IMG/VR virus record: IMGVR_UViG_2706794686_000007
Strand: one strand, 5' to 3'
Length of the DNA: 33,508 nt
Source of the DNA: a virus
Lineage: Duplodnaviria > Heunggongvirae > Uroviricota > Caudoviricetes
The translations under genes and the position numbers were made by a program. This document shows positions 617 through 23,842 of the stretch, in pieces (the stretch's first letter is position 1; every line of letters begins with the position of its first letter). The notes below the pieces were generated by a model. It saw only the letters and a list, made by a program, of their open reading frames with translations, was not told where the DNA came from and did not search any database.

Positions 617-1760
617 TTATATACTTGCAGCCGTCACCCATGCTCCATTTAACAGATACTGCAACGGCCGGTAATACACGCCGCCGACGTTATCTGCCGT
701 ATTCTTACCGACATCCTGTACTTTAATTCCGGTAAGAACATTGCCGCCCCCCAGATTCAGANNNNNNNNNNNNNNNNNNNNNNNNNNNNNNNNNNNNNNN
801 NNNNNNNNNNNNNNNNNNNNNNNNNNNNNNNNNNNNNNNNNNNNNNNNNNNNNNNNNNNNNNNNNNNNNNNNNNNNNNNNNNNNNNNNNNNNNNNNNNNN
901 NNNNNNNNNNNNNNNNNNNNNNNNNNNNNNNNNNNNNNNNNNNNNNNNNNNNNNNNNNNNNNNNNNNNNNNNNNNNNNNNNNNNNNNNNNNNNNNNNNNN
1001 NNNNNNNNNNNNNNNNNNNNNNNNNNNNNNTCTCTGCTCCCAGCCTGATATCCTGGATATATCGGGAATCCGCATCCTGCTGTGTTATACCAGAAGTGAT
1101 GTTTATGTCCTGCGTCCCGTCAAAGGGAACCCCATTAATATTTCTTGGGGTGGCGAGTCTATTCGCGGCAACGGCGGTGCCGTCCGATGGCAGAGCATTC
1201 GCCGCCCTGTTTACCGTTTCCCGTAAACCGACGTTATCGATAAAAGCCCCTTTATCCGGAATGTCTGCGCCGTTCTGCTCCCTGCGCAGGTAACGGTTAT
1301 CACCTTCGCTTTTGCTGTAAACATCCAGATTATTACGGGCGGTTCCCTTATTCTCCAGGTCGGCGAGATTCTGATCCTTCGCCAGGGCATTAACGTCAGC
1401 GGGACCAAGACTGTTTTTTGTGGCAAGCGTCCCCAGACCAAGATAACCACGGGCCAGACGCTGGGCCTCCGCACCGGCATCAGCAATTTCTTTCAGGTTA
1501 TTTTTCCGGGAAAAGGCATTCGCAGCGATAATGGCTTTAATGGACAGCGTAAGCTGGTTTAACTGCGCCTTATCCGGCTGAATACTGGCTTCAGCCAGAA
1601 TATTCAGCAGTTCGGCCTGGAGAATATTCAGCCAGTCCTGACCAATCCAGCTGATACCTTTTTGTCCGTCACCTTCGGTAAACCAGGTGGTGGTATTACT
1701 CTGCGCCGGTGCCAGCGCAGGCATATTCGCCACGCCGGAATTATTATCAACATGAAACAT
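617..1760 (-). CDS. tail fibre protein (Mu S / P2 H-like C-terminal region), interrupted by N-mask 762-1030
   Basis: ORF from 1760 runs into the N-run; motifs [23 protein letters not shown] and C-terminal [17 protein letters not shown] resemble P2 gpH as I recall it. Frame across the mask cannot be verified. Confidence 0.75.
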
Positions 1761-2320: not shown

Positions 2321-3393
2321 GTGATTTCTCCTACCGTCAGCAGCTCACTGTCTCCCGCCTGAACTGACGTCAGCGGACTGCGCACTTCAAAATCCTCCAG
2401 ATTTTTCACCCCTGCCACCGCCCGCCAGAAAGACGACGGCAGAACCAGACCGCCGGGCCGGGATTCGTTATACAACAGGTCGGTCAGCGCCTGTTTTACG
2501 GCCGCCTGATTCTCCGGTGTTTTCGGGATGATCCTGATGCTGAAGGGCACCGGCTTATTGGTCAGTTTAAACACGGTCACCGTCGGCCCCAGAGGCTGTC
2601 CGACAGGCTGGCCGGTCGCCGGATCATCATGACTGCGGATATAATCCGCCACCCGCTGAACATCACCGTCACCGGGGAAAATATCCGGGTTATTATCCTG
2701 AACAAACGTTACCCCCACGCTGCCCGCCTGCGGCCATTCCGGGCGGCACCATGCCCGCGTCACGCCCGGCACTTCACGCGCCCAGCGTTCAAAATCATAC
2801 TGCGTGCCGCCGGACGGTGGATTCTGCACCCGGAAAACCAGACGGGAAAGCAGCTCCGGCACGGTTTCCACATCCGCACCACCGGTGATCCCCGTTCCGG
2901 TCACCGTGGCCGTCTGGTTGATCCCCGCCTGCGGTGTGATAAATGTCAGTTTTGTCCCTGCCGGGGCATTCCCCGCACGACCGGCACTTTCGGCTTCCAC
3001 ACTGACATTCAGCGTACCGGCCTTACCGGTCAGGGAGGTGGTGATACGGTAAACCACGCCATCACTTCGCTGGAGAAGCACACCTTCCTTGATCCCCGCA
3101 TCCGTGGTCAGCATCAGCTGAACCGGCCCGTCCCCCCGAGAGGCAGGCTTACGCATGACGCCCCAGAATGCACAGTGTTTCAGCAGTTCGGCTTCATCGG
3201 CTTCGGTCGGGATGATCTGACGCGCAATCCAGGCCAGATGCTCATGCTCCTGAGCAGATAACCCTGCCTGAGCGTAAGCAATGGCATTCAGGGTGGTTTC
3301 ATTCACACCCGGCTGCGAGCCGGGCAGGCGCTGGCTGATATCCTGCTGTGTCTGCGTGATTAACTGTGCCAGCGGTAAAGGCTGATAAGGCAT
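2311..3393 (-). CDS. baseplate J-like protein (Mu gp47-like)
   Basis: 360-aa ORF, translationally coupled to neighbours, in the position of Mu gp47 (baseplate J family). Confidence 0.7.
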   Translation of the reverse strand: MPYQPLPLAQLITQTQQDISQRLPGSQPGVNETTLNAIAYAQAGLSAQEHEHLAWIARQIIPTEADEAELLKHCAFWGVMRKPASRGDGPVQLMLTTDAGIKEGVLLQRSDGVVYRITTSLTGKAGTLNVSVEAESAGRAGNAPAGTKLTFITPQAGINQTATVTGTGITGGADVETVPELLSRLVFRVQNPPSGGTQYDFERWAREVPGVTRAWCRPEWPQAGSVGVTFVQDNNPDIFPGDGDVQRVADYIRSHDDPATGQPVGQPLGPTVTVFKLTNKPVPFSIRIIPKTPENQAAVKQALTDLLYNESRPGGLVLPSSFWRAVAGVKNLEDFEVRSPLTSVQAGDSELLTVGEITWL

Positions 3394-3830
3394 TACTCCC
3401 CCTTAAGATCAGCATAAAAAATCATGGGCCTCACTGAACCATCAGGCAGGGTTATGCGCACCGAAAGCGCCAGCCGCGCGTGTCCCACACGTTCTGCATG
3501 ACAGACCACGGATGACGCCACGCCATCCTGACTGAGCCAGCCCAGCGCCTCATCCGCGTAAGCACGGGCACGGCTTATCACCGAGGCCAGCGTTTTTTCC
3601 CGGCTGAGAAGCCACAGACGGGAGCCAATGGGGCGCGGGCGAAAACTGTCTCCCCACCATCCCCGGCGGTCGCGCGTACCGTCAGGGATTTCATCCGATG
3701 CCAGCGCCCGGCGGTCAGTAAACAGCGAAATCAGAACGGCCGTCAGCAGACTGTCATCCGTCAGCAAGTCGGCACCGTTCAGTTGCAGCGAACCGCACCC
3801 CTGATCCCATACAATTGCAATATCAGCCAT
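3393..3830 (-). CDS. baseplate protein (Mu gp46-like, phage GP46 family)
   Basis: Internal start MADIAIVWDQG… chosen over the ORF-track start at 3974 because the longer version overlaps the upstream gene by about 150 nt. Motifs LFTDRRA and DRRGWWGD resemble the GP46 family. Confidence 0.65.
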   Translation of the reverse strand: MADIAIVWDQGCGSLQLNGADLLTDDSLLTAVLISLFTDRRALASDEIPDGTRDRRGWWGDSFRPRPIGSRLWLLSREKTLASVISRARAYADEALGWLSQDGVASSVVCHAERVGHARLALSVRITLPDGSVRPMIFYADLKGE

Positions 3831-4437
3831 TCTCCGGCGCTCCTGTCTTACTGCCTTTGCCGTTATCCTGATGCACATGGCCGGAATAGGTGATCCCGGC
3901 AATAACGGCATCAGACATCGTGAACAGCCCGTCTGATTTACCTGTACCATCAAGCACGAAATTACCCTTAACATGCAGGTTTTTATCCACCGTCACATTG
4001 CCCGTAAAGGTGGCCTCCGGCGTATCCACCCGCATCCCCTCATCGGCGTAAATCTCCAGCATTTTGCATGTCACAATAATGCGACCATCCTTTGTTAACC
4101 GTATCCGGTGCCCCTCATGGTGATACACCCCCGTATCTCCGGCTGTGAGTCCGGTCGGGCGGCTGCGCCGGTCTTCCACCACAAGCACCACAGTCTGATC
4201 CCGCTGTCCGCCCAGACAGGCAAAAAAGGTTTCCGCACCCGGCAGGGGAACGCTGATCTGCCCGTACTGCTGGGGACGCTCCACATCATCAAAGGTTTCG
4301 CCGTCCATGCCGGTGAGCTGCACATTCTGCATTTTCAGTTCGTCATGTGTGCCGGTCAGAACGCCCCGGCCAAACAACAGGCGAATACCGCGCGTTACCG
4401 GGGCAATCAGGCGGCTGAACACTTCATCATTCATCAA
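3823..4437 (-). CDS. baseplate spike / assembly protein V-like (Mu gp45-like)
   Basis: 204-aa ORF between the P-like and gp46-like genes; Gly-rich C-terminus typical of spike proteins. Confidence 0.6.
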   Translation of the reverse strand: MMNDEVFSRLIAPVTRGIRLLFGRGVLTGTHDELKMQNVQLTGMDGETFDDVERPQQYGQISVPLPGAETFFACLGGQRDQTVVLVVEDRRSRPTGLTAGDTGVYHHEGHRIRLTKDGRIIVTCKMLEIYADEGMRVDTPEATFTGNVTVDKNLHVKGNFVLDGTGKSDGLFTMSDAVIAGITYSGHVHQDNGKGSKTGAPENG

Positions 4438-5551
4438 AGCTGATCCCCTGTTTTTTCATCTGCTGGCGAATAAAGGCATCAACATCGTCACCGGAACCAC
4501 CCCGGCCCTTACTGTCCGGCTCTGCCGGAACGATAAAGCCGTCACGCGGTGCCAGTACCAGCCGGGTGACTTCCCCGTTATGTTCATCAAGTAAAAACTC
4601 CACCTGACAGACCAGCAGTTCAGTCTGTTCTATACCGAAACGCAGGGCTGAAACACCGGTCAGCAGATTGACATCCCATAACCGGCCATCATCCCGGAAC
4701 CAGCCACGCACGGTGGCAGAAAACCGTTCTGAACGGGCAATCGCACGGCGCATTTCACGCAGGGCACGCTGCCGTGCACCGGTGGTGTCTGTCTGTTGAT
4801 CGGCGAGGATGATTTTCGACCGGTAGCGGCCGATCTGCTCATCACTGATGACGCCCACAGGTGCTGCCAGACGGGCGGCGGATTCGCTGTCTCCCCGTTT
4901 GCCACCACCGCGCCCGTGTCCCCGGACACGGTATTCGCTGTATCGTCCTCGCCAGTCCGTGTTGTAATCGGCATCAAGCAGGTTATCTCCCAGCACCAGT
5001 CTGTCCGTCTGCTGGCTTCCTGCCTGGGTGAACACCAGATCGCCGTCAGCATTACTGGTCACCAGCACCCCGCGATGCCGGGCAGCACGGGTCAGCGCAT
5101 CCGCCACGGTTTCTGAGTTTTCCAGCGTAAAAGAGCTGAAGGGGCGTGCAGCCGTGTCGTCGTTAACCTGCCAGCGCACGGCTATCCCGAAGGGCGCACA
5201 TAAATCTGCGGCAATCTGTGCCAGCGTCCGGTTGCGCCACTGGCTGCCGGGATGGATGGCGGCACAGTCCACCAGGTCGCCGGTTTTATCCCGACCGCTG
5301 ATGCTGATCTGATGACGGGTTGCACTGATCCGCTGACTGACCTGATCCAGCCAGCCACTGATGACCGTCTGCCCGTTAATTCTGAGCGTCAGGGACTGAC
5401 CGGTTCGCAGGGCTGAGGGGATGCGCTCACCGGGCAGCATCAGCCCCAGTTCAAACGACCCGGCCAGATGCTCCAGCGAGCGACGGACGCTGACCGTCAG
5501 CCAGCCGGAAAAAATACTGCCACCGATATACAGTTCAATCCTGCTGCTCAC
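4427..5551 (-). CDS. tail protein P-like (baseplate hub, gpD-like)
   Basis: 374-aa ORF directly after N, as in Mu (N then P); start overlaps the end of N. Confidence 0.7.
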   Translation of the reverse strand: MSSRIELYIGGSIFSGWLTVSVRRSLEHLAGSFELGLMLPGERIPSALRTGQSLTLRINGQTVISGWLDQVSQRISATRHQISISGRDKTGDLVDCAAIHPGSQWRNRTLAQIAADLCAPFGIAVRWQVNDDTAARPFSSFTLENSETVADALTRAARHRGVLVTSNADGDLVFTQAGSQQTDRLVLGDNLLDADYNTDWRGRYSEYRVRGHGRGGGKRGDSESAARLAAPVGVISDEQIGRYRSKIILADQQTDTTGARQRALREMRRAIARSERFSATVRGWFRDDGRLWDVNLLTGVSALRFGIEQTELLVCQVEFLLDEHNGEVTRLVLAPRDGFIVPAEPDSKGRGGSGDDVDAFIRQQMKKQGISFDE

Positions 5552-18850: not shown

Positions 18851-20517
18851 TACCAGCCCCCCCGATCAAATTCATGATATGCCTCATCGTCATCACGATA
18901 ACCGCCCTCCATTGCCCGCGACCGCTCCTGTAGCGCCTGACAGGCTGATTCATCCAGGATGAAGCCCTCCATGTATGACGCCCGGTTTGCCATACAGAGC
19001 GCCACGGCAAAATCACCATGGCGGCGGGCGTTCGCAGCCGTTGCGTTCTGGTCCTTCGTGCGCCCCTTGTCGATTTGCGGGATACCATTCACTACCTTCA
19101 CATGGCGCAAATCATCAAGCGTGGTCTGATGGCGGGCGACGAGGATATTCTGATCTTCAAACTCGGCTTTCAGTTTTGGCATCCACTCGCCGTACCACTT
19201 CGGCGACAACATCACGCAGTCGATGATGTCCGGGCCAAAGGCCAGCAGTGCGGCCTCTGCCAGATAGCCGCCGTTACCGGTGGCGTCGAACGCCGCACCG
19301 ACCAGCGCCGGAACGCGGGTCAGGATGTACATCATCACCTGTTCCTGCTGGGCATACGGCAGGTTGCGCAGCTCCACGCGAAACACCTCGCGCTTTGCCA
19401 GGGATTCGGTGATTTCCAGCAGCACAAAGCAGGACAGGTCACCGGTGCGGGCAAAGTCTTCCCCGAAGCTGAAGCGGGAACGGGGATTTAATTTCTCTAA
19501 AAGCGGTTTTAAATGTTCTTCACACCAGGTTAAAACTTCCGATTCACGCAGCCATGCGGCACGGCTGATGAAGTTGTCCGGGGCTTCAAACGTCAGAATC
19601 GGGATGTCGCGGATCATCGCCATTTCAATAAGCGCGTGGGGGATATAGGCACCGCCGGATTTTTTCGGGATACAGCCGTATTCCTCGTCGGCATCCTCAC
19701 GGGTCGGGGCGTTTTTGTAGAGATCATCACGCCATTTCTGCTCGCTTTCCGGTGACCATTCCTGATCGGTGACGTAACAGATACGACGGTACAGCCCGTC
19801 CGCAATGGCATCATCCAGGGTTATGCGGTGGACGCTGTAATCCTTGCGCCCCTCGCGGGCTTCCTGAATGTACTGATTAAACAGATTATCGACGCCGTTA
19901 TGCGTGGAGATAATACGCACGCGCGCGCCCCACATAGTGAGCGCCATTGCCGCCTTGAGAAGCTCATCCAGTGACTCGTGGAACGCGGCTTCATCAATCA
20001 CCACATCCCCCTGAAGGCCGCGCAGGTTTGACGGACGGGAAGACAATGCCTGAATTTTGAATCCACTGTTCGGAAAGCGGATCATGTAGGTCAAAATTTC
20101 TTCTTTTTTATCCCGATCCCAGAATGTCTGCTCATACACATCAGCATCTGCCAGCTGGTTAAAGGCACGGGAGAACAGCGCGCAGGCAGAAATATATTCC
20201 AGCGCCATCTCCTGCTTTGATCCCACATAAAACACATTGCGGCCACCACGACGCTTCGGTTTTGCAGCAGTAATGACGTTACGCCCGGCTTCCGCCCAGG
20301 TAAGACCGGTGCGGCGGGATTTCTCCGCGATGCAGACCTGACTTTCATCTGCAAACCAGCGGGCCTGATAATCCAGAAACACCGGCATATCACCGGGCAA
20401 ATCAAGGCTGTCCGGCACATCCACGCCCAGCAGGGCTTTTTCACCTGACAGATCAATTTTGCGGGGAGGCGTCATTTGCATCAGTGAAGGCGACGTTTCT
20501 CTGGCTTTGTTCATCAT
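18850..20517 (-). CDS. terminase large subunit (Mu gp28-like)
   Basis: 555-aa ORF with Walker-B-like VVIDEAAF; upstream of the portal. Confidence 0.8.
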   Translation of the reverse strand: MMNKARETSPSLMQMTPPRKIDLSGEKALLGVDVPDSLDLPGDMPVFLDYQARWFADESQVCIAEKSRRTGLTWAEAGRNVITAAKPKRRGGRNVFYVGSKQEMALEYISACALFSRAFNQLADADVYEQTFWDRDKKEEILTYMIRFPNSGFKIQALSSRPSNLRGLQGDVVIDEAAFHESLDELLKAAMALTMWGARVRIISTHNGVDNLFNQYIQEAREGRKDYSVHRITLDDAIADGLYRRICYVTDQEWSPESEQKWRDDLYKNAPTREDADEEYGCIPKKSGGAYIPHALIEMAMIRDIPILTFEAPDNFISRAAWLRESEVLTWCEEHLKPLLEKLNPRSRFSFGEDFARTGDLSCFVLLEITESLAKREVFRVELRNLPYAQQEQVMMYILTRVPALVGAAFDATGNGGYLAEAALLAFGPDIIDCVMLSPKWYGEWMPKLKAEFEDQNILVARHQTTLDDLRHVKVVNGIPQIDKGRTKDQNATAANARRHGDFAVALCMANRASYMEGFILDESACQALQERSRAMEGGYRDDDEAYHEFDRGGW

Positions 20518-20762
20518 GCTTTACCTGTCAGAATGCTTTTGATTCGGGACTCAAGCTCTTCAGTCATCACGTCCACGCCGCTCAACTCATCAGTGGCAGC
20601 CTCTGCCAGCAGCGAATGCAGTTGTTCCAGGGATATTTCCCCGGCAATGCTGAGTTCAGTCAACTCACGACATACCTTTATGGTTTCAGGAGGTAACTGT
20701 GTTGCAAGACTGAATGCTTTCTGATGGGCACTGCTCATCAGTGAGCGGTTATCTGTTGCCAT
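20514..20762 (-). CDS. small protein sharing the C-terminal motif of the upstream gp27-like protein
   Basis: 82-aa ORF with strong SD (GGAGGTGAAT); C-terminal 28 aa are about 60% identical to the C-terminus of the 20773-21354 product, with visible DNA similarity. Confidence 0.45.
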   Translation of the reverse strand: MATDNRSLMSSAHQKAFSLATQLPPETIKVCRELTELSIAGEISLEQLHSLLAEAATDELSGVDVMTEELESRIKSILTGKA

Positions 20763-20772
20763 GATTCACCTC

Positions 20773-21354
20773 CTACGCCTTACCCAGCAGCATCTGCCTG
20801 ATACGGAATTCGATCTGCTCGCTCATGCCATCCACGCCGCGCAACTCATCGGTGACCGCATTCGCCATCTCTTCAGCAAATGCGGCCCGGATTTCTTTTT
20901 CACGCTTAATGCTGCGCTCGGCGGCACTTTCTGCACGCTGTGCCGACAGGAGGATGTCCTTAATAAGGCGCATATCCACATCGCTGTCGCTGTTCAGGGA
21001 TTCGGTGGCGGCACGCAGACGGCGGTACATCAGGGCACGGGACATCTCCAGAATCAGTGCCGTGGTTTCACCGGTCGGCTTATCCCCCAGTTCGGCCATC
21101 ATGGCTTTTGTCTGCTCGCGTAAATCACGCAGATTACGGGCAATCAGCTCATTACGGGAGGCTTCCCGGCTGATGGCCGCCGGTGAGAGCTGCTGCTCTT
21201 CCGGCAGACCTGCTTCACGGATCAGACGGTTGATTTCCTCGCGGATCTGGACCTGCGTCAGACGTTTTTCACGCAGCATTTCCAGCAGCGGCTTACGGAT
21301 GCTGTCGGGGAGCAAATCCACCTTGCGTACACGGCCACGCGCTGGCTTATCCAT
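20773..21354 (-). CDS. Mu gp27-like protein (putative small terminase, DUF3486-type)
   Basis: 193-aa charged, coiled-coil-like ORF immediately upstream of the terminase large subunit. Confidence 0.55.
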   Translation of the reverse strand: MDKPARGRVRKVDLLPDSIRKPLLEMLREKRLTQVQIREEINRLIREAGLPEEQQLSPAAISREASRNELIARNLRDLREQTKAMMAELGDKPTGETTALILEMSRALMYRRLRAATESLNSDSDVDMRLIKDILLSAQRAESAAERSIKREKEIRAAFAEEMANAVTDELRGVDGMSEQIEFRIRQMLLGKA

Positions 21355-23335: not shown

Positions 23336-23401
23336 TGTTACGCTGTCTCATGGTGTTCTCTGAGTCAGCGTAACCGTGAGGAAAAGGGGGCAGGATTTGC
23401 G

Positions 23402-23842
23402 NNNNNNNNNNNNNNNNNNNNNNNNNNNNNNNNNNNNNNNNNNNNNNNNNNNNNNNNNNNNNNNNNNNNNNNNNNNNNNNNNNNNNNNNNNNNNNNNNNN
23501 NNNNNNNNNNNNNNNNNNNNNNNNNNNNNNNNNNNNNNNNNNNNNNNNNNNNNNNNNNNNNNNNNNNNNNNNNNNNNNNNNNNNNNNNNNNNNNNNNNNN
23601 NNNNNNNNNNNNNNNNNNNNNNNNNNNNNNNNNNNNNNNNNNNNNNNNNNNNNNNNNNNNNNNNCCGCCTGAGCAGGTTCAATCCCCTGACGGTGCAGTT
23701 CAGCACTGATCACATCAACCAGGTCCCGCAGCGTGCCGGGCCAGTTCTTTTTCAGCTCATCATCAGGAATATCATCCAGACGGTCAATCAGCGCGTGCAG
23801 CTGTTCGCTGTCACCAAACATGCTCATCTGTGTTTCAGCCAT
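23402..23842 (-). CDS. Mor/C-family transcriptional activator, 3' part N-masked
   Basis: N-terminus MAETQMSMFGDSEQLHALIDRLDD…GIEPAQA resembles the Mu Mor N-terminus as I recall it; SD GGAGG upstream; the rest is hidden by the N-run. Confidence 0.55.

What the first reader, a model, noticed from the sequence alone, without database searches (positions are those of the whole stretch)
20514..21354. C-terminal motif of the gp27-like protein duplicated in a separate small ORF
The 193-aa gp27-like protein ends …AVTDELRGVDGMSEQIEFRIRQMLLGKA and the downstream 82-aa ORF ends …AATDELSGVDVMTEELESRIKSILTGKA (about 60% identity over 28 aa, with DNA similarity between 20773-20860 and 20520-20605). The small ORF has a strong SD and overlaps the terminase start, so it is probably expressed. 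A shared C-terminal tail could be a common docking motif, for example for the large terminase.
Basis: seen in the sequence. Interest (0 to 1): 0.45.

Follow-up and report, generated by a model that had tools for sequence, protein, structure and literature searches.

The report
Chimeric ORF carrying duplicated TerS tail
In an E. coli Mu-like prophage, a small gene wedged between the two DNA-packaging (terminase) genes ends with a diverged copy of the last ~30 codons of the small-terminase gene; this looks like a scar of recombination at that gene junction, and the copy drifts almost freely, so it is an instructive but fairly ordinary piece of phage mosaicism.

Summary
The last 31 residues of the gp27-like protein (20773-21354, minus strand) and of the 82-aa ORF (20514-20762) align at 18/31 identity (E 3e-10), and the DNA aligns ungapped over 91 nt (0/2000 shuffles reach the score). 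The window is an E. coli Mu-like prophage: gp27 is the predicted small terminase (TerS) and the next gene the large terminase (TerL).

ORF82 is a chimera.
- Residues 4-56 belong to a fast-evolving small-ORF family found between terS and terL in Salmonella, Citrobacter and E. coli Mu-like prophages. That family is homologous to an N-terminal segment of the MuF/gp30 minor head protein.
- Only the E. coli ORF82 allele also carries the gp27 tail plus the stop/start overlap with terL.

The gp27 tail is the best-conserved part of gp27 (pN/pS 0.02). The ORF82 copy evolves almost neutrally (31 nonsynonymous : 12 synonymous changes, against 7:50 in gp27) and has lost residues that never vary in true tails.

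ORF82 is absent from about 89% of the closest E. coli relatives.

Most likely it is a recombination-born junction duplicate that keeps terL translationally coupled. A TerL-docking role is not excluded and was not tested.

The parts
20773..21354 (-). gp27-like gene (Phage_Mu_Gp27 / DUF3486), the predicted small terminase subunit (terS), 193 aa
   Evidence: PF11985 E 3.1e-33 over residues 12-193. phrog_426 'terminase small subunit' E 1.8e-54. 57% identical to Mu gp27. Lies directly upstream of the large terminase gene.
20776..20868 (-). Tail copy A: the last 31 codons of gp27 (MANAVTDELRGVDGMSEQIEFRIRQMLLGKA), the most conserved segment of the gp27 family
   Evidence: Same motif in E. coli, Salmonella, Mu and 15 other gammaproteobacterial loci, down to 31% overall identity. 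pN/pS 0.02. 1 nonsynonymous: 12 synonymous changes.
20767..20774 (-). Shine-Dalgarno sequence AGGAGGTG for ORF82; it overlaps the gp27 stop codon TAG (20773-20775)
   Evidence: Read directly. Conserved in all ORF82, ORF67 and ORF65-type loci.
20514..20762 (-). ORF82, a chimeric small ORF (RefSeq WP_000179787.1, hypothetical protein; phrog_30922, unknown function)
   Evidence: phrog_30922 E 6.9e-52. Homologues found only in E. coli.
20595..20753 (-). MuF-N-terminal-like module of ORF82 (residues 4-56), shared with the small ORFs between terS and terL of Salmonella and Citrobacter prophages and with E. coli ORF67
   Evidence: ORF82 vs Citrobacter ORF65 E 4e-7. ORF65 tblastn vs Mu gp30 residues 32-79, E 1e-4 database-wide. 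ORF82 vs Mu gp30 E 2e-4. hhalign probability 88.9%, E 2.4e-6, ORF82 4-56 = MuF 32-84. Salmonella ORF65 vs phrog_220 (MuF) E 8.4e-6.
20517..20609 (-). Tail copy B: the last 31 codons of ORF82 (LAEAATDELSGVDVMTEELESRIKSILTGKA), a diverged duplicate of the gp27 3' end
   Evidence: BLASTP E 3e-10. 91-nt ungapped DNA alignment, z = 14.8. Closest known tail is that of the ORF-less E. coli lineage, 72/93 nt. 9 nonsynonymous: 5 synonymous changes.
20512..20517 (-). Stop/start overlap ATGATG: ORF82 stop TGA (20514-20516) overlaps the terL start ATG (20515-20517, or 20512-20514 as RefSeq annotates it)
   Evidence: In relatives without a small ORF, the gp27 stop abuts or overlaps the terL start in the same way, with a gap of -4 to +5 nt.
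18850..20517 (-). Large terminase (Mu gp28-like, terL), 555 aa. The first ~20 residues are hypervariable; the protein is conserved from PRKIDL onward.
   Evidence: phrog_2 'terminase large subunit' E 5.2e-43. Collinear with Mu gp28. pN/pS 1.04 for residues 2-20 against 0.06 for the rest.
15946..17277 (-). MuF / gp30-like minor head protein of the same prophage. Its residues ~31-84 are the distant paralogue of the ORF82 N-module; it is not a recent donor.
   Evidence: PF04233 E 4.8e-30. ORF65 vs this protein residues 31-78, E 2e-5. ORF82 vs this protein gives no direct BLASTP hit.

Best explanation
ORF82 is a young, lineage-restricted chimeric gene at the terS-terL junction of an E. coli Mu-like prophage.

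Its first ~56 residues are the local allele of a fast-evolving small accessory ORF. That ORF sits between gp27 (terS) and gp28 (terL) in a clade of enterobacterial Mu-like prophages and is itself an old offshoot of the N-terminal segment of the MuF/gp30 head protein.

Its last 26-31 codons, together with the stop/start overlap onto terL, are a diverged duplicate of the 3' end of a gp27 gene. I infer that one illegitimate crossover created it. The left parent carried the small ORF. The right parent was an ORF-less relative in which gp27 runs directly into terL. The crossover joined the small ORF in frame to that gp27 tail.

Shown: the homology of both modules, the anatomy, the distribution, and the relaxed constraint.

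Inferred: ORF82 is translated from its own strong SD. Ribosomes that terminate at its TGA re-initiate at the overlapping terL ATG, as they do after gp27 in ORF-less relatives. What is kept is therefore an open frame running into terL, not the tail's amino-acid sequence. On this reading the shared tail is a relic of descent rather than a selected common docking motif.
For: (1) The duplication is real at protein and DNA level.

(2) The ORF82 N-module is homologous to tail-less small ORFs at the same position: Citrobacter L016/L042 ORF65 (E 4e-7), Salmonella L043-L048 (ORF69 hits phrog_30922 at 4.5e-5) and E. coli ORF67, P0012/L011. It is also homologous to the MuF N-terminus. None of the other alleles has a significant gp27-like tail.

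(3) The arrangement gp27 full tail, then SD, then small-ORF start is common to all ORF-bearing loci. The 3' side is what varies: direct ATGA overlap, insertion of an extra unrelated gene (a moron), or the gp27 tail.

(4) Tail B is closest to the tail of the ORF-less E. coli lineage (72/93 nt, against 62/93 to its own neighbour A).

(5) Constraint among 15 ORF82-bearing loci: ORF82 has 31 nonsynonymous: 12 synonymous changes, against gp27 7:50 (Fisher 1e-9) and TerL 25:88. The tail alone has 9:5, against 1:12 for the gp27 tail (p 0.004). pN/pS is 0.56 against 0.04.

(6) Tail B carries substitutions at positions invariant or near-invariant in about 60 distinct true gp27 tails. In-frame 2-3 aa deletions at the start of the tail also occur (P0003, P0004).

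(7) 25 of 231 E. coli genomes that carry this gp27/terL region have ORF82. In the other ~207 the match is 259 nt shorter and gp27 overlaps terL.

(8) The gp27 stop abuts or overlaps the terL start (gap -4 to +5 nt) in all 11 ORF-less loci from other genera where both genes could be called. The ORF82, ORF65 and ORF87 stops all overlap the terL ATG as ATGA.
Against: - No donor with a near-identical tail was found, and the first 18 terL codons after tail B resemble the ORF-less lineage only weakly. The crossover scenario is therefore a reconstruction, not an observation.
- Coupling is not obligatory in the family. In L011 and L043/L044 an insertion separates the small ORF from terL.
- No stop codon or frameshift was seen in 15 loci, but with about 43 substitutions only about 2 nonsense changes are expected, so the intact frame is weak evidence either way.
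- High N/S could also reflect diversifying selection on a functional protein.
- The amphipathic pattern and most family-conserved residues of the tail (TDEL.G.D.M.E.LE.RI..L.GKA) are still present, so residual binding to the tail's partner is possible.
- No expression data were available.
Confidence: 0.6

Rival explanations
1. One reading: the tail is a functional docking helix shared by gp27 and ORF82. ORF82 would be a small packaging accessory that binds the large terminase (or whatever the TerS tail binds). It could be an assembly factor, or an adaptor linking the partner of the MuF-N-like module (for example the portal) to TerL.
For: - The TerS C-termini of lambda and P22 bind TerL (PMC9611059).
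- The gp27 tail is the most conserved part of the family.
- ORF82 keeps the predicted helix-loop-helix shape of the tail (helices 45-60 and 68-79, against 128-171 and 179-189 in gp27) and most conserved tail residues.
- It has a strong SD and lies inside the packaging operon.
- ORF82-bearing prophages occur in 2-3 copies in some genomes, which suggests they are viable.
Against: - The tail evolves near neutrally and has lost invariant residues.
- Homologous small ORFs do without the tail.
- The ORF is absent from about 89% of the closest relatives, from Mu itself and from the other ORF-less loci examined.
- Both AF2 models are of low or moderate confidence, and no complex could be modelled.
Confidence: 0.2
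2. Competition decoy: ORF82 presents a foreign-type TerS tail (closest to that of the ORF-less E. coli lineage) in order to sequester the TerL of co-resident or superinfecting Mu-like phages. Its fast evolution would then reflect an arms race.
For: - Tail B is nearer to the ORF-less lineage's tail than to its own gp27 tail (72 against 62 of 93 nt).
- The N/S ratio is high.
- E. coli genomes often carry several Mu-like prophages, up to 4 places per genome.
- From my own knowledge, satellites are known to interfere with helper-phage small terminase function in order to redirect packaging.
Against: - N/S (2.6:1) does not exceed the neutral expectation (about 3:1), so there is no signal of positive selection.
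- Substitutions hit positions invariant in every real tail, including those of the supposed targets.
- There is no evidence of interference.
Confidence: 0.08
3. ORF82 is not translated or is entirely functionless: an annotation-level ORF in an inert spacer left by recombination.
For: Near-neutral substitution pattern. Narrow distribution. One frameshifted variant in an assembly, P0010.
Against: - A consensus SD at ideal spacing is conserved in every allele, with ATG or GTG starts.
- The frame stays open through to the terL start in 15/15 loci.
- The wider small-ORF family persists across Salmonella, Citrobacter and E. coli with dN/dS about 0.45, that is, some constraint.
Confidence: 0.12

Closest known systems
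Bacteriophage Mu gp27 (Phage_Mu_Gp27, PF11985/DUF3486; phrog_426, annotated small terminase subunit)
   Same: The last 26-31 residues of ORF82 are homologous to the gp27 C-terminal tail, including the stop/start junction with terL.
   Different: ORF82 has none of the first ~160 residues of gp27 (predicted N-terminal helix-turn-helix region and long helices), does not hit PF11985, and its tail is not under the strong constraint seen in gp27.
MuF / Mu gp30 (F) / SPP1 gp7 minor head protein family (PF04233, phrog_220)
   Same: ORF82 residues 4-56 and the related small ORFs align with MuF residues ~32-84.
   Different: Only a ~50-residue N-terminal segment is present. It lies mostly upstream of the PF04233 domain (residues 58-187 in the window's MuF), and none of the small ORFs tested (ORF82; P0006, ORF65 and P0012) hits PF04233. 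The similarity to the prophage's own MuF is remote, so this is not a recent internal duplication. MuF function is itself poorly known; SPP1 gp7 binds the portal (PMC5576092).
phrog_30922 (unknown function) and the unnamed small ORFs between terS and terL of Salmonella and Citrobacter Mu-like prophages
   Same: ORF82 is a full-length member of phrog_30922 (E 6.9e-52). It occupies the same position, has the same SD context and shares the N-terminal module with the 65-, 67-, 69- and 87-aa ORFs.
   Different: Only ORF82 carries a recognisable gp27 tail. The other alleles end differently or are followed by an inserted gene (a moron) on the opposite strand.
TerS C-terminal TerL-binding tails of lambda gpNu1 and P22 gp3
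   Same: A short C-terminal segment of the small terminase, beyond the oligomerisation core, that binds TerL (PMC9611059). The strongly conserved gp27 tail is the positional analogue.
   Different: No sequence or structural homology was shown. The binding role of the Mu gp27 tail is inferred, not tested. No case of such a tail being duplicated onto a second ORF turned up in the literature searches.

Membership tests
Phage_Mu_Gp27 / DUF3486 (PF11985) | Match of ORF82 to the family HMM above the gathering score | tested here: not met
   ORF82 gives no PF11985 hit at E <= 0.1, whereas gp27 scores 116 bits against a cutoff of 28.
Phage_Mu_Gp27 / DUF3486 (PF11985) | Conserved C-terminal tail AANAV[ST][DE]ELRG.DGMSE.LE..I...LLGKA | tested here: inconclusive
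   ORF82 has a homologous tail (18/31, E 3e-10) but departs at five positions that are invariant or near-invariant in true tails.
Phage_Mu_Gp27 / DUF3486 (PF11985) | N-terminal ~160 residues (predicted helix-turn-helix region plus long helices) | tested here: not met
   No similarity between ORF82 residues 1-51 and gp27 residues 1-162 at protein level or DNA level.
phrog_30922 (unknown function) | Full-length match to the profile | tested here: met
   E 6.9e-52, residues 2-82 on profile positions 2-82 of 82.
MuF / Phage_Mu_F (PF04233, phrog_220) | Match to the PF04233 domain model | tested here: not met
   No PF04233 hit for ORF82, nor for P0006, P0012 or ORF65.
MuF / Phage_Mu_F (PF04233, phrog_220) | Homology to the N-terminal segment (residues ~32-84) of MuF proteins | tested here: met
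   hhalign probability 88.9%, E 2.4e-6. tblastn of ORF65 against Mu-family gp30, E 1e-4. phrog_220 E 8.4e-6 for Salmonella ORF65.
Small terminase (TerS), applied to gp27 | Gene immediately upstream of, and translationally linked to, terL in the packaging module | tested here: met
   Gene order and stop/start spacing in Mu and 11 other loci. phrog_426 is annotated as terminase small subunit.
Small terminase (TerS), applied to gp27 | TerS fold: N-terminal HTH, helical oligomerisation core, flexible C-terminal moiety | tested here: inconclusive
   The AF2 model is all-helical but has pLDDT 57, too low for a fold search. No solved relative by sequence.
Small terminase (TerS), applied to gp27 | C-terminal segment binds TerL | not testable with these tools
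   The structure tool predicts one chain at a time and takes only window or database sequences, so no complex could be modelled. The role is inferred from lambda and P22 (PMC9611059).
Translationally coupled gene pair | Overlapping stop and start codons (ATGA / TGATG) between the upstream ORF and terL | tested here: met
   ORF82 TGA 20514-20516 overlaps the terL ATG. The same holds for gp27 in ORF-less relatives and for ORF65 and ORF87.
Translationally coupled gene pair | terL translation depends on translation of the upstream ORF | not testable with these tools
   This needs reporter fusions or an early nonsense mutant.

The most novel reading that the evidence does not exclude
ORF82 is a functional two-module adaptor or decoy born by exon-shuffling-like recombination. 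A MuF-N-like module would bind what the MuF N-terminus binds (for example the portal). It is fused to a TerS-type tail that would bind TerL. The protein would then modulate terminase recruitment, or would poison the terminase of competing Mu-like phages whose tail it most resembles.
Probability: 0.12. Interest if true: 0.6.

Novelty: new variant of a known kind. Interest (0 to 1): 0.3.

Why it matters
The locus is a clean, datable example of how phage genomes make new small genes. A junction between two essential, translationally coupled genes (terS and terL) acts as a hotspot of mosaic variation: at least four alleles occur among close relatives. One recombination event fused a fragment-derived accessory ORF to a copy of the neighbour's C-terminus.

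It also does two practical things. It marks the gp27 tail as the most constrained segment of the Mu-type small terminase, and so as the obvious target for mapping the TerS-TerL contact in Mu, which is still uncharacterised. And it identifies a previously undescribed family of MuF-N-terminal-like small proteins in the packaging operon of Salmonella, Citrobacter and E. coli Mu-like prophages.

If the tail copy still binds TerL, ORF82 would be a natural competitor peptide for that interface.

Tried and rejected
1. Tandem duplication of 'gp27 tail + terL 5' end'. ORF82 residues 8-46 against TerL residues 1-39 gave a Smith-Waterman score of 37 (shuffle p about 0.001 before correction for 7 tests), and there is a shared in-frame TCACTGATG. 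The signal is weak and not reproduced with other TerL N-termini. It is superseded by the much better supported MuF-N homology.

2. ORF82 as a 5'-truncated divergent gp27. No similarity upstream of the tail and no PF11985 hit.

3. Recent in-genome duplication of the prophage's own MuF 5' end. ORF82 against the window's MuF gives no BLASTP hit. Citrobacter ORF65 is only 24% identical to its own MuF.

No donor allele was found among about 45 distinct E. coli and Salmonella tails or among the 18 other gp27 tails compared at DNA level.

5. A decayed gp27 tail in the Salmonella 87-aa ORF (AEGLRGAE...VGKTS). DNA match 17/22, shuffle p about 0.05; no BLASTP alignment. Not accepted.

6. ORF-less relatives as deletion derivatives by recombination between tails A and B. 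The ORF-less tail does look like 'first half A + second half B', but it falls within the normal variation of gp27 tails, and ORF-less is the state in Mu and most distant relatives.

Full report
**Context**

The window is a Mu-like prophage of E. coli with its late genes on the minus strand. It is 99.9% identical over the tested 1.3 kb to strain 102651. Gene order, in the direction of transcription, is:
- lysozyme, spanin genes, TraR/DksA-like, DUF2730;
- gp26-like;
- gp27-like (20773-21354; PF11985 E 3e-33; phrog_426 'terminase small subunit');
- ORF82 (20514-20762);
- large terminase (18850-20517; phrog_2);
- portal (17261-18850);
- MuF/gp30-like (15946-17277).

In Mu itself, gp27 is followed after 7 nt by gp28, with no intervening ORF.

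Yes.
- The last 31 residues of gp27 and of ORF82 align without gaps at 18/31 identity and 24/31 positives (E 3e-10).
- At DNA level there is an ungapped, in-frame 91-nt alignment, 20777-20867 against 20518-20608. It scores 33 against 11.2 +/- 1.5 in 2000 codon shuffles, none of which reach it. Identity is 62/93 nt over the 31 codons.
- Nothing upstream of the tail is similar.
- ORF82 has an AGGAGGTG Shine-Dalgarno sequence 6 nt before its ATG, and its TGA overlaps the terL ATG.

**What the gp27 tail is**

Across E. coli, Salmonella and Mu, and across 15 loci from other Gammaproteobacteria down to 31% overall identity, the tail AANAV[ST][DE]ELRG.DGMSE.LE..I...LLGKA is the best-conserved part of gp27. 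Within the E. coli lineage its pN/pS is 0.02.

The gp27 stop abuts or overlaps the terL start (gap -4 to +5 nt) in all 11 ORF-less loci from other genera where both genes could be called. In the two other ORF-less relatives examined, the ORF-less E. coli lineage overlaps in the same way and Mu has a 7-nt spacer.

In lambda and P22 the TerS C-terminus binds TerL (PMC9611059). A TerL-binding role for the gp27 tail is therefore a reasonable inference, but it is untested. No study of the Mu pair was found, and there is no solved relative.

**What ORF82 is**

It has homologues only in E. coli and is catalogued as phrog_30922, unknown function. The decisive lead came from relatives.

- A Citrobacter braakii prophage has a 65-aa ORF in the same position, with the same SD context and an ATGA overlap with terL. 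It is homologous to ORF82 residues 4-46 (E 4e-7) but has no gp27-like tail.
- Salmonella Mu-like prophages carry 65-, 69- or 87-aa alleles at this position.
- One E. coli lineage carries a 67-aa allele, P0012.

None of these has a significant gp27 tail.

The Citrobacter ORF hits, database-wide, the N-terminal region of Mu gp30/F and its relatives (41.7% over 48 aa, E 1e-4). Further support:
- ORF82 against Mu gp30, E 2e-4;
- a profile-profile comparison aligns ORF82 residues 4-56 with MuF residues 32-84 (probability 88.9%, E 2.4e-6);
- PHROGs independently links Salmonella ORF65 to phrog_220, 'minor head protein and DNA pilot' (E 8.4e-6), and ORF69 to both phrog_30922 and phrog_220.

The similarity to each prophage's own MuF is remote, so the small ORF is an old offshoot and not a fresh duplicate.

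ORF82 is therefore a chimera: a MuF-N-like module (about residues 4-56) plus a gp27 tail (about residues 52/57-82) plus the coupled junction with terL. The AF2 model (pLDDT 69.7) shows helices 3-22, 25-39 and 45-60, a low-confidence loop, then helix 68-79. This mirrors the helix-loop-helix at the gp27 C-terminus in its own low-confidence model.

**Distribution**

231 of 5426 complete E. coli genomes carry this gp27/terL region, but only 25 carry the ORF82-specific DNA. In the other ~207, mostly O157 and other Shiga-toxin-producing E. coli (STEC), the match spans 1042 nt instead of 1301 nt. In the one ORF-less relative read base by base (L002), gp27 ends ...EQLESRIKGILLGKA with TGATG onto terL.

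The terS-terL junction therefore has at least four alleles among close relatives: no ORF, ORF82, ORF67 plus an AT-rich insert, and the ORF65 type.

**Constraint**

Among 15 ORF82-bearing loci:

| Region | Nonsynonymous : synonymous changes |
|---|---|
| ORF82 | 31 : 12 |
| gp27 | 7 : 50 (Fisher 1e-9 against ORF82) |
| TerL 21-554 | 25 : 88 |
| ORF82 tail | 9 : 5 |
| gp27 tail | 1 : 12 (p 0.004 against the ORF82 tail) |

pN/pS is 0.56 for ORF82, against 0.04 for gp27 and 0.06 for TerL. The ORF82 ratio is close to the neutral expectation of about 3:1.

Tail B differs from every true tail at positions that otherwise never or almost never vary: V->A, R->S, G->V, S->T, L->T. In-frame 2-3 aa deletions at the start of the tail exist. 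The broader ORF65 family shows dN/dS of about 0.45, against 0.12 for gp27 and 0.04 for TerL. It is fast-evolving but probably not junk.

**Origin**

The left side (gp27 full tail, SD, small-ORF start) is common to all ORF-bearing loci; the variable side is the ORF's 3' end. Tail B is closest to the tail of the ORF-less E. coli lineage (72/93 nt) and less close to its neighbour A (62/93).

The simplest reconstruction is a single illegitimate crossover between an ORF-bearing genome on the left and an ORF-less genome on the right. The join would be in frame, about 26-31 codons before the gp27 stop, and the copy would then have drifted. No donor was found, and the first 18 terL codons are themselves hypervariable (pN/pS about 1), so the event cannot be pinned down further.

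**Mechanism**

- Shown: the anatomy, the homology of both modules, the distribution and the relaxed constraint.
- Inferred: ORF82 is translated. Its termination at ATGA hands ribosomes to terL, as gp27 does in ORF-less relatives. Selection therefore maintains an open frame into terL rather than the peptide sequence.
- Caveat: coupling is not universal in the family (L011 and L043 alleles).

The evolutionary evidence does not favour it, and it could not be tested here.

**Novelty**

The ORF is already catalogued as a hypothetical protein and a PHROG. Three things do not appear in the annotation or in the literature I could search: its chimeric nature, the MuF-N-like small-ORF family at the terS-terL junction, and the contrast between the ultra-conserved gp27 tail and its drifting copy. 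As a kind of event this is ordinary phage mosaicism and gene birth, so interest is modest.

Noticed in passing
window 762-1030, 23402-23664, 27359-27628: Three runs of N (263-270 nt each) mask parts of the prophage. One interrupts the ORF at 23348-23842(-) just upstream of the lysozyme gene.
   Followed up: partly
window 20458-20517 (terL codons 1-20); L002, L011, L016-L031, L043-L048: The first ~17-25 residues of the large terminase are hypervariable between lineages and evolve at pN/pS about 1, whereas the protein is strongly conserved from PRKIDL..LGVD onward. In P22 and lambda the TerL N-terminus is the TerS-binding site, so the conserved PRKIDL block is the candidate partner of the gp27 tail.
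   Followed up: partly
L011 4181-4300 (minus strand); L043/L044 3429-3647 (minus strand): In the ORF67 (E. coli) and ORF69 (Salmonella) alleles, an AT-rich insert between the small ORF and terL carries an opposite-strand ORF of 39 aa (with a strong SD) or 72 aa. Both share a QLEL..E motif. The 72-aa ORF has no PHROG or NCBIfam hit; the 39-aa ORF was not searched. This is probably a moron at the terS-terL junction.
   Followed up: partly
E. coli JE86-ST05 (NZ_AP022815.1), JE86-ST02, strain 48: The ORF82-specific segment occurs 2-3 times per chromosome in some strains. This suggests the ORF82-bearing Mu-like phage is transposition-competent, so the extra ORF does not cripple it.
   Followed up: no
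L004 and L007 2514-2565 / 3001-3050 (ORF82 codons 1-17); P0005, P0006: A second mosaic breakpoint lies inside ORF82. Some alleles have a completely different first ~16 codons (MEKNIRALIISARHEAF instead of MATDNRSLMSSAHQKAF). The commonest allele starts with GTG instead of ATG.
   Followed up: partly
L026 (Erwinia tracheiphila) 3071-4733: The terL gene of this Mu-like prophage appears frameshifted: its N-terminal part lies in separate short ORFs. This indicates a decaying prophage.
   Followed up: no
P0016 (291 aa, Logan contig): A gp27 homologue about 98 residues longer than normal, roughly the size expected for a gp26-gp27 fusion. It could be a real frameshift fusion or an assembly error.
   Followed up: no
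L015 371-613 (P0011): One short metagenomic contig has the first ~24 codons of ORF82 fused to unrelated sequence and followed by baseplate-like genes (GpP-like). This is probably a chimeric assembly or a deletion derivative.
   Followed up: no
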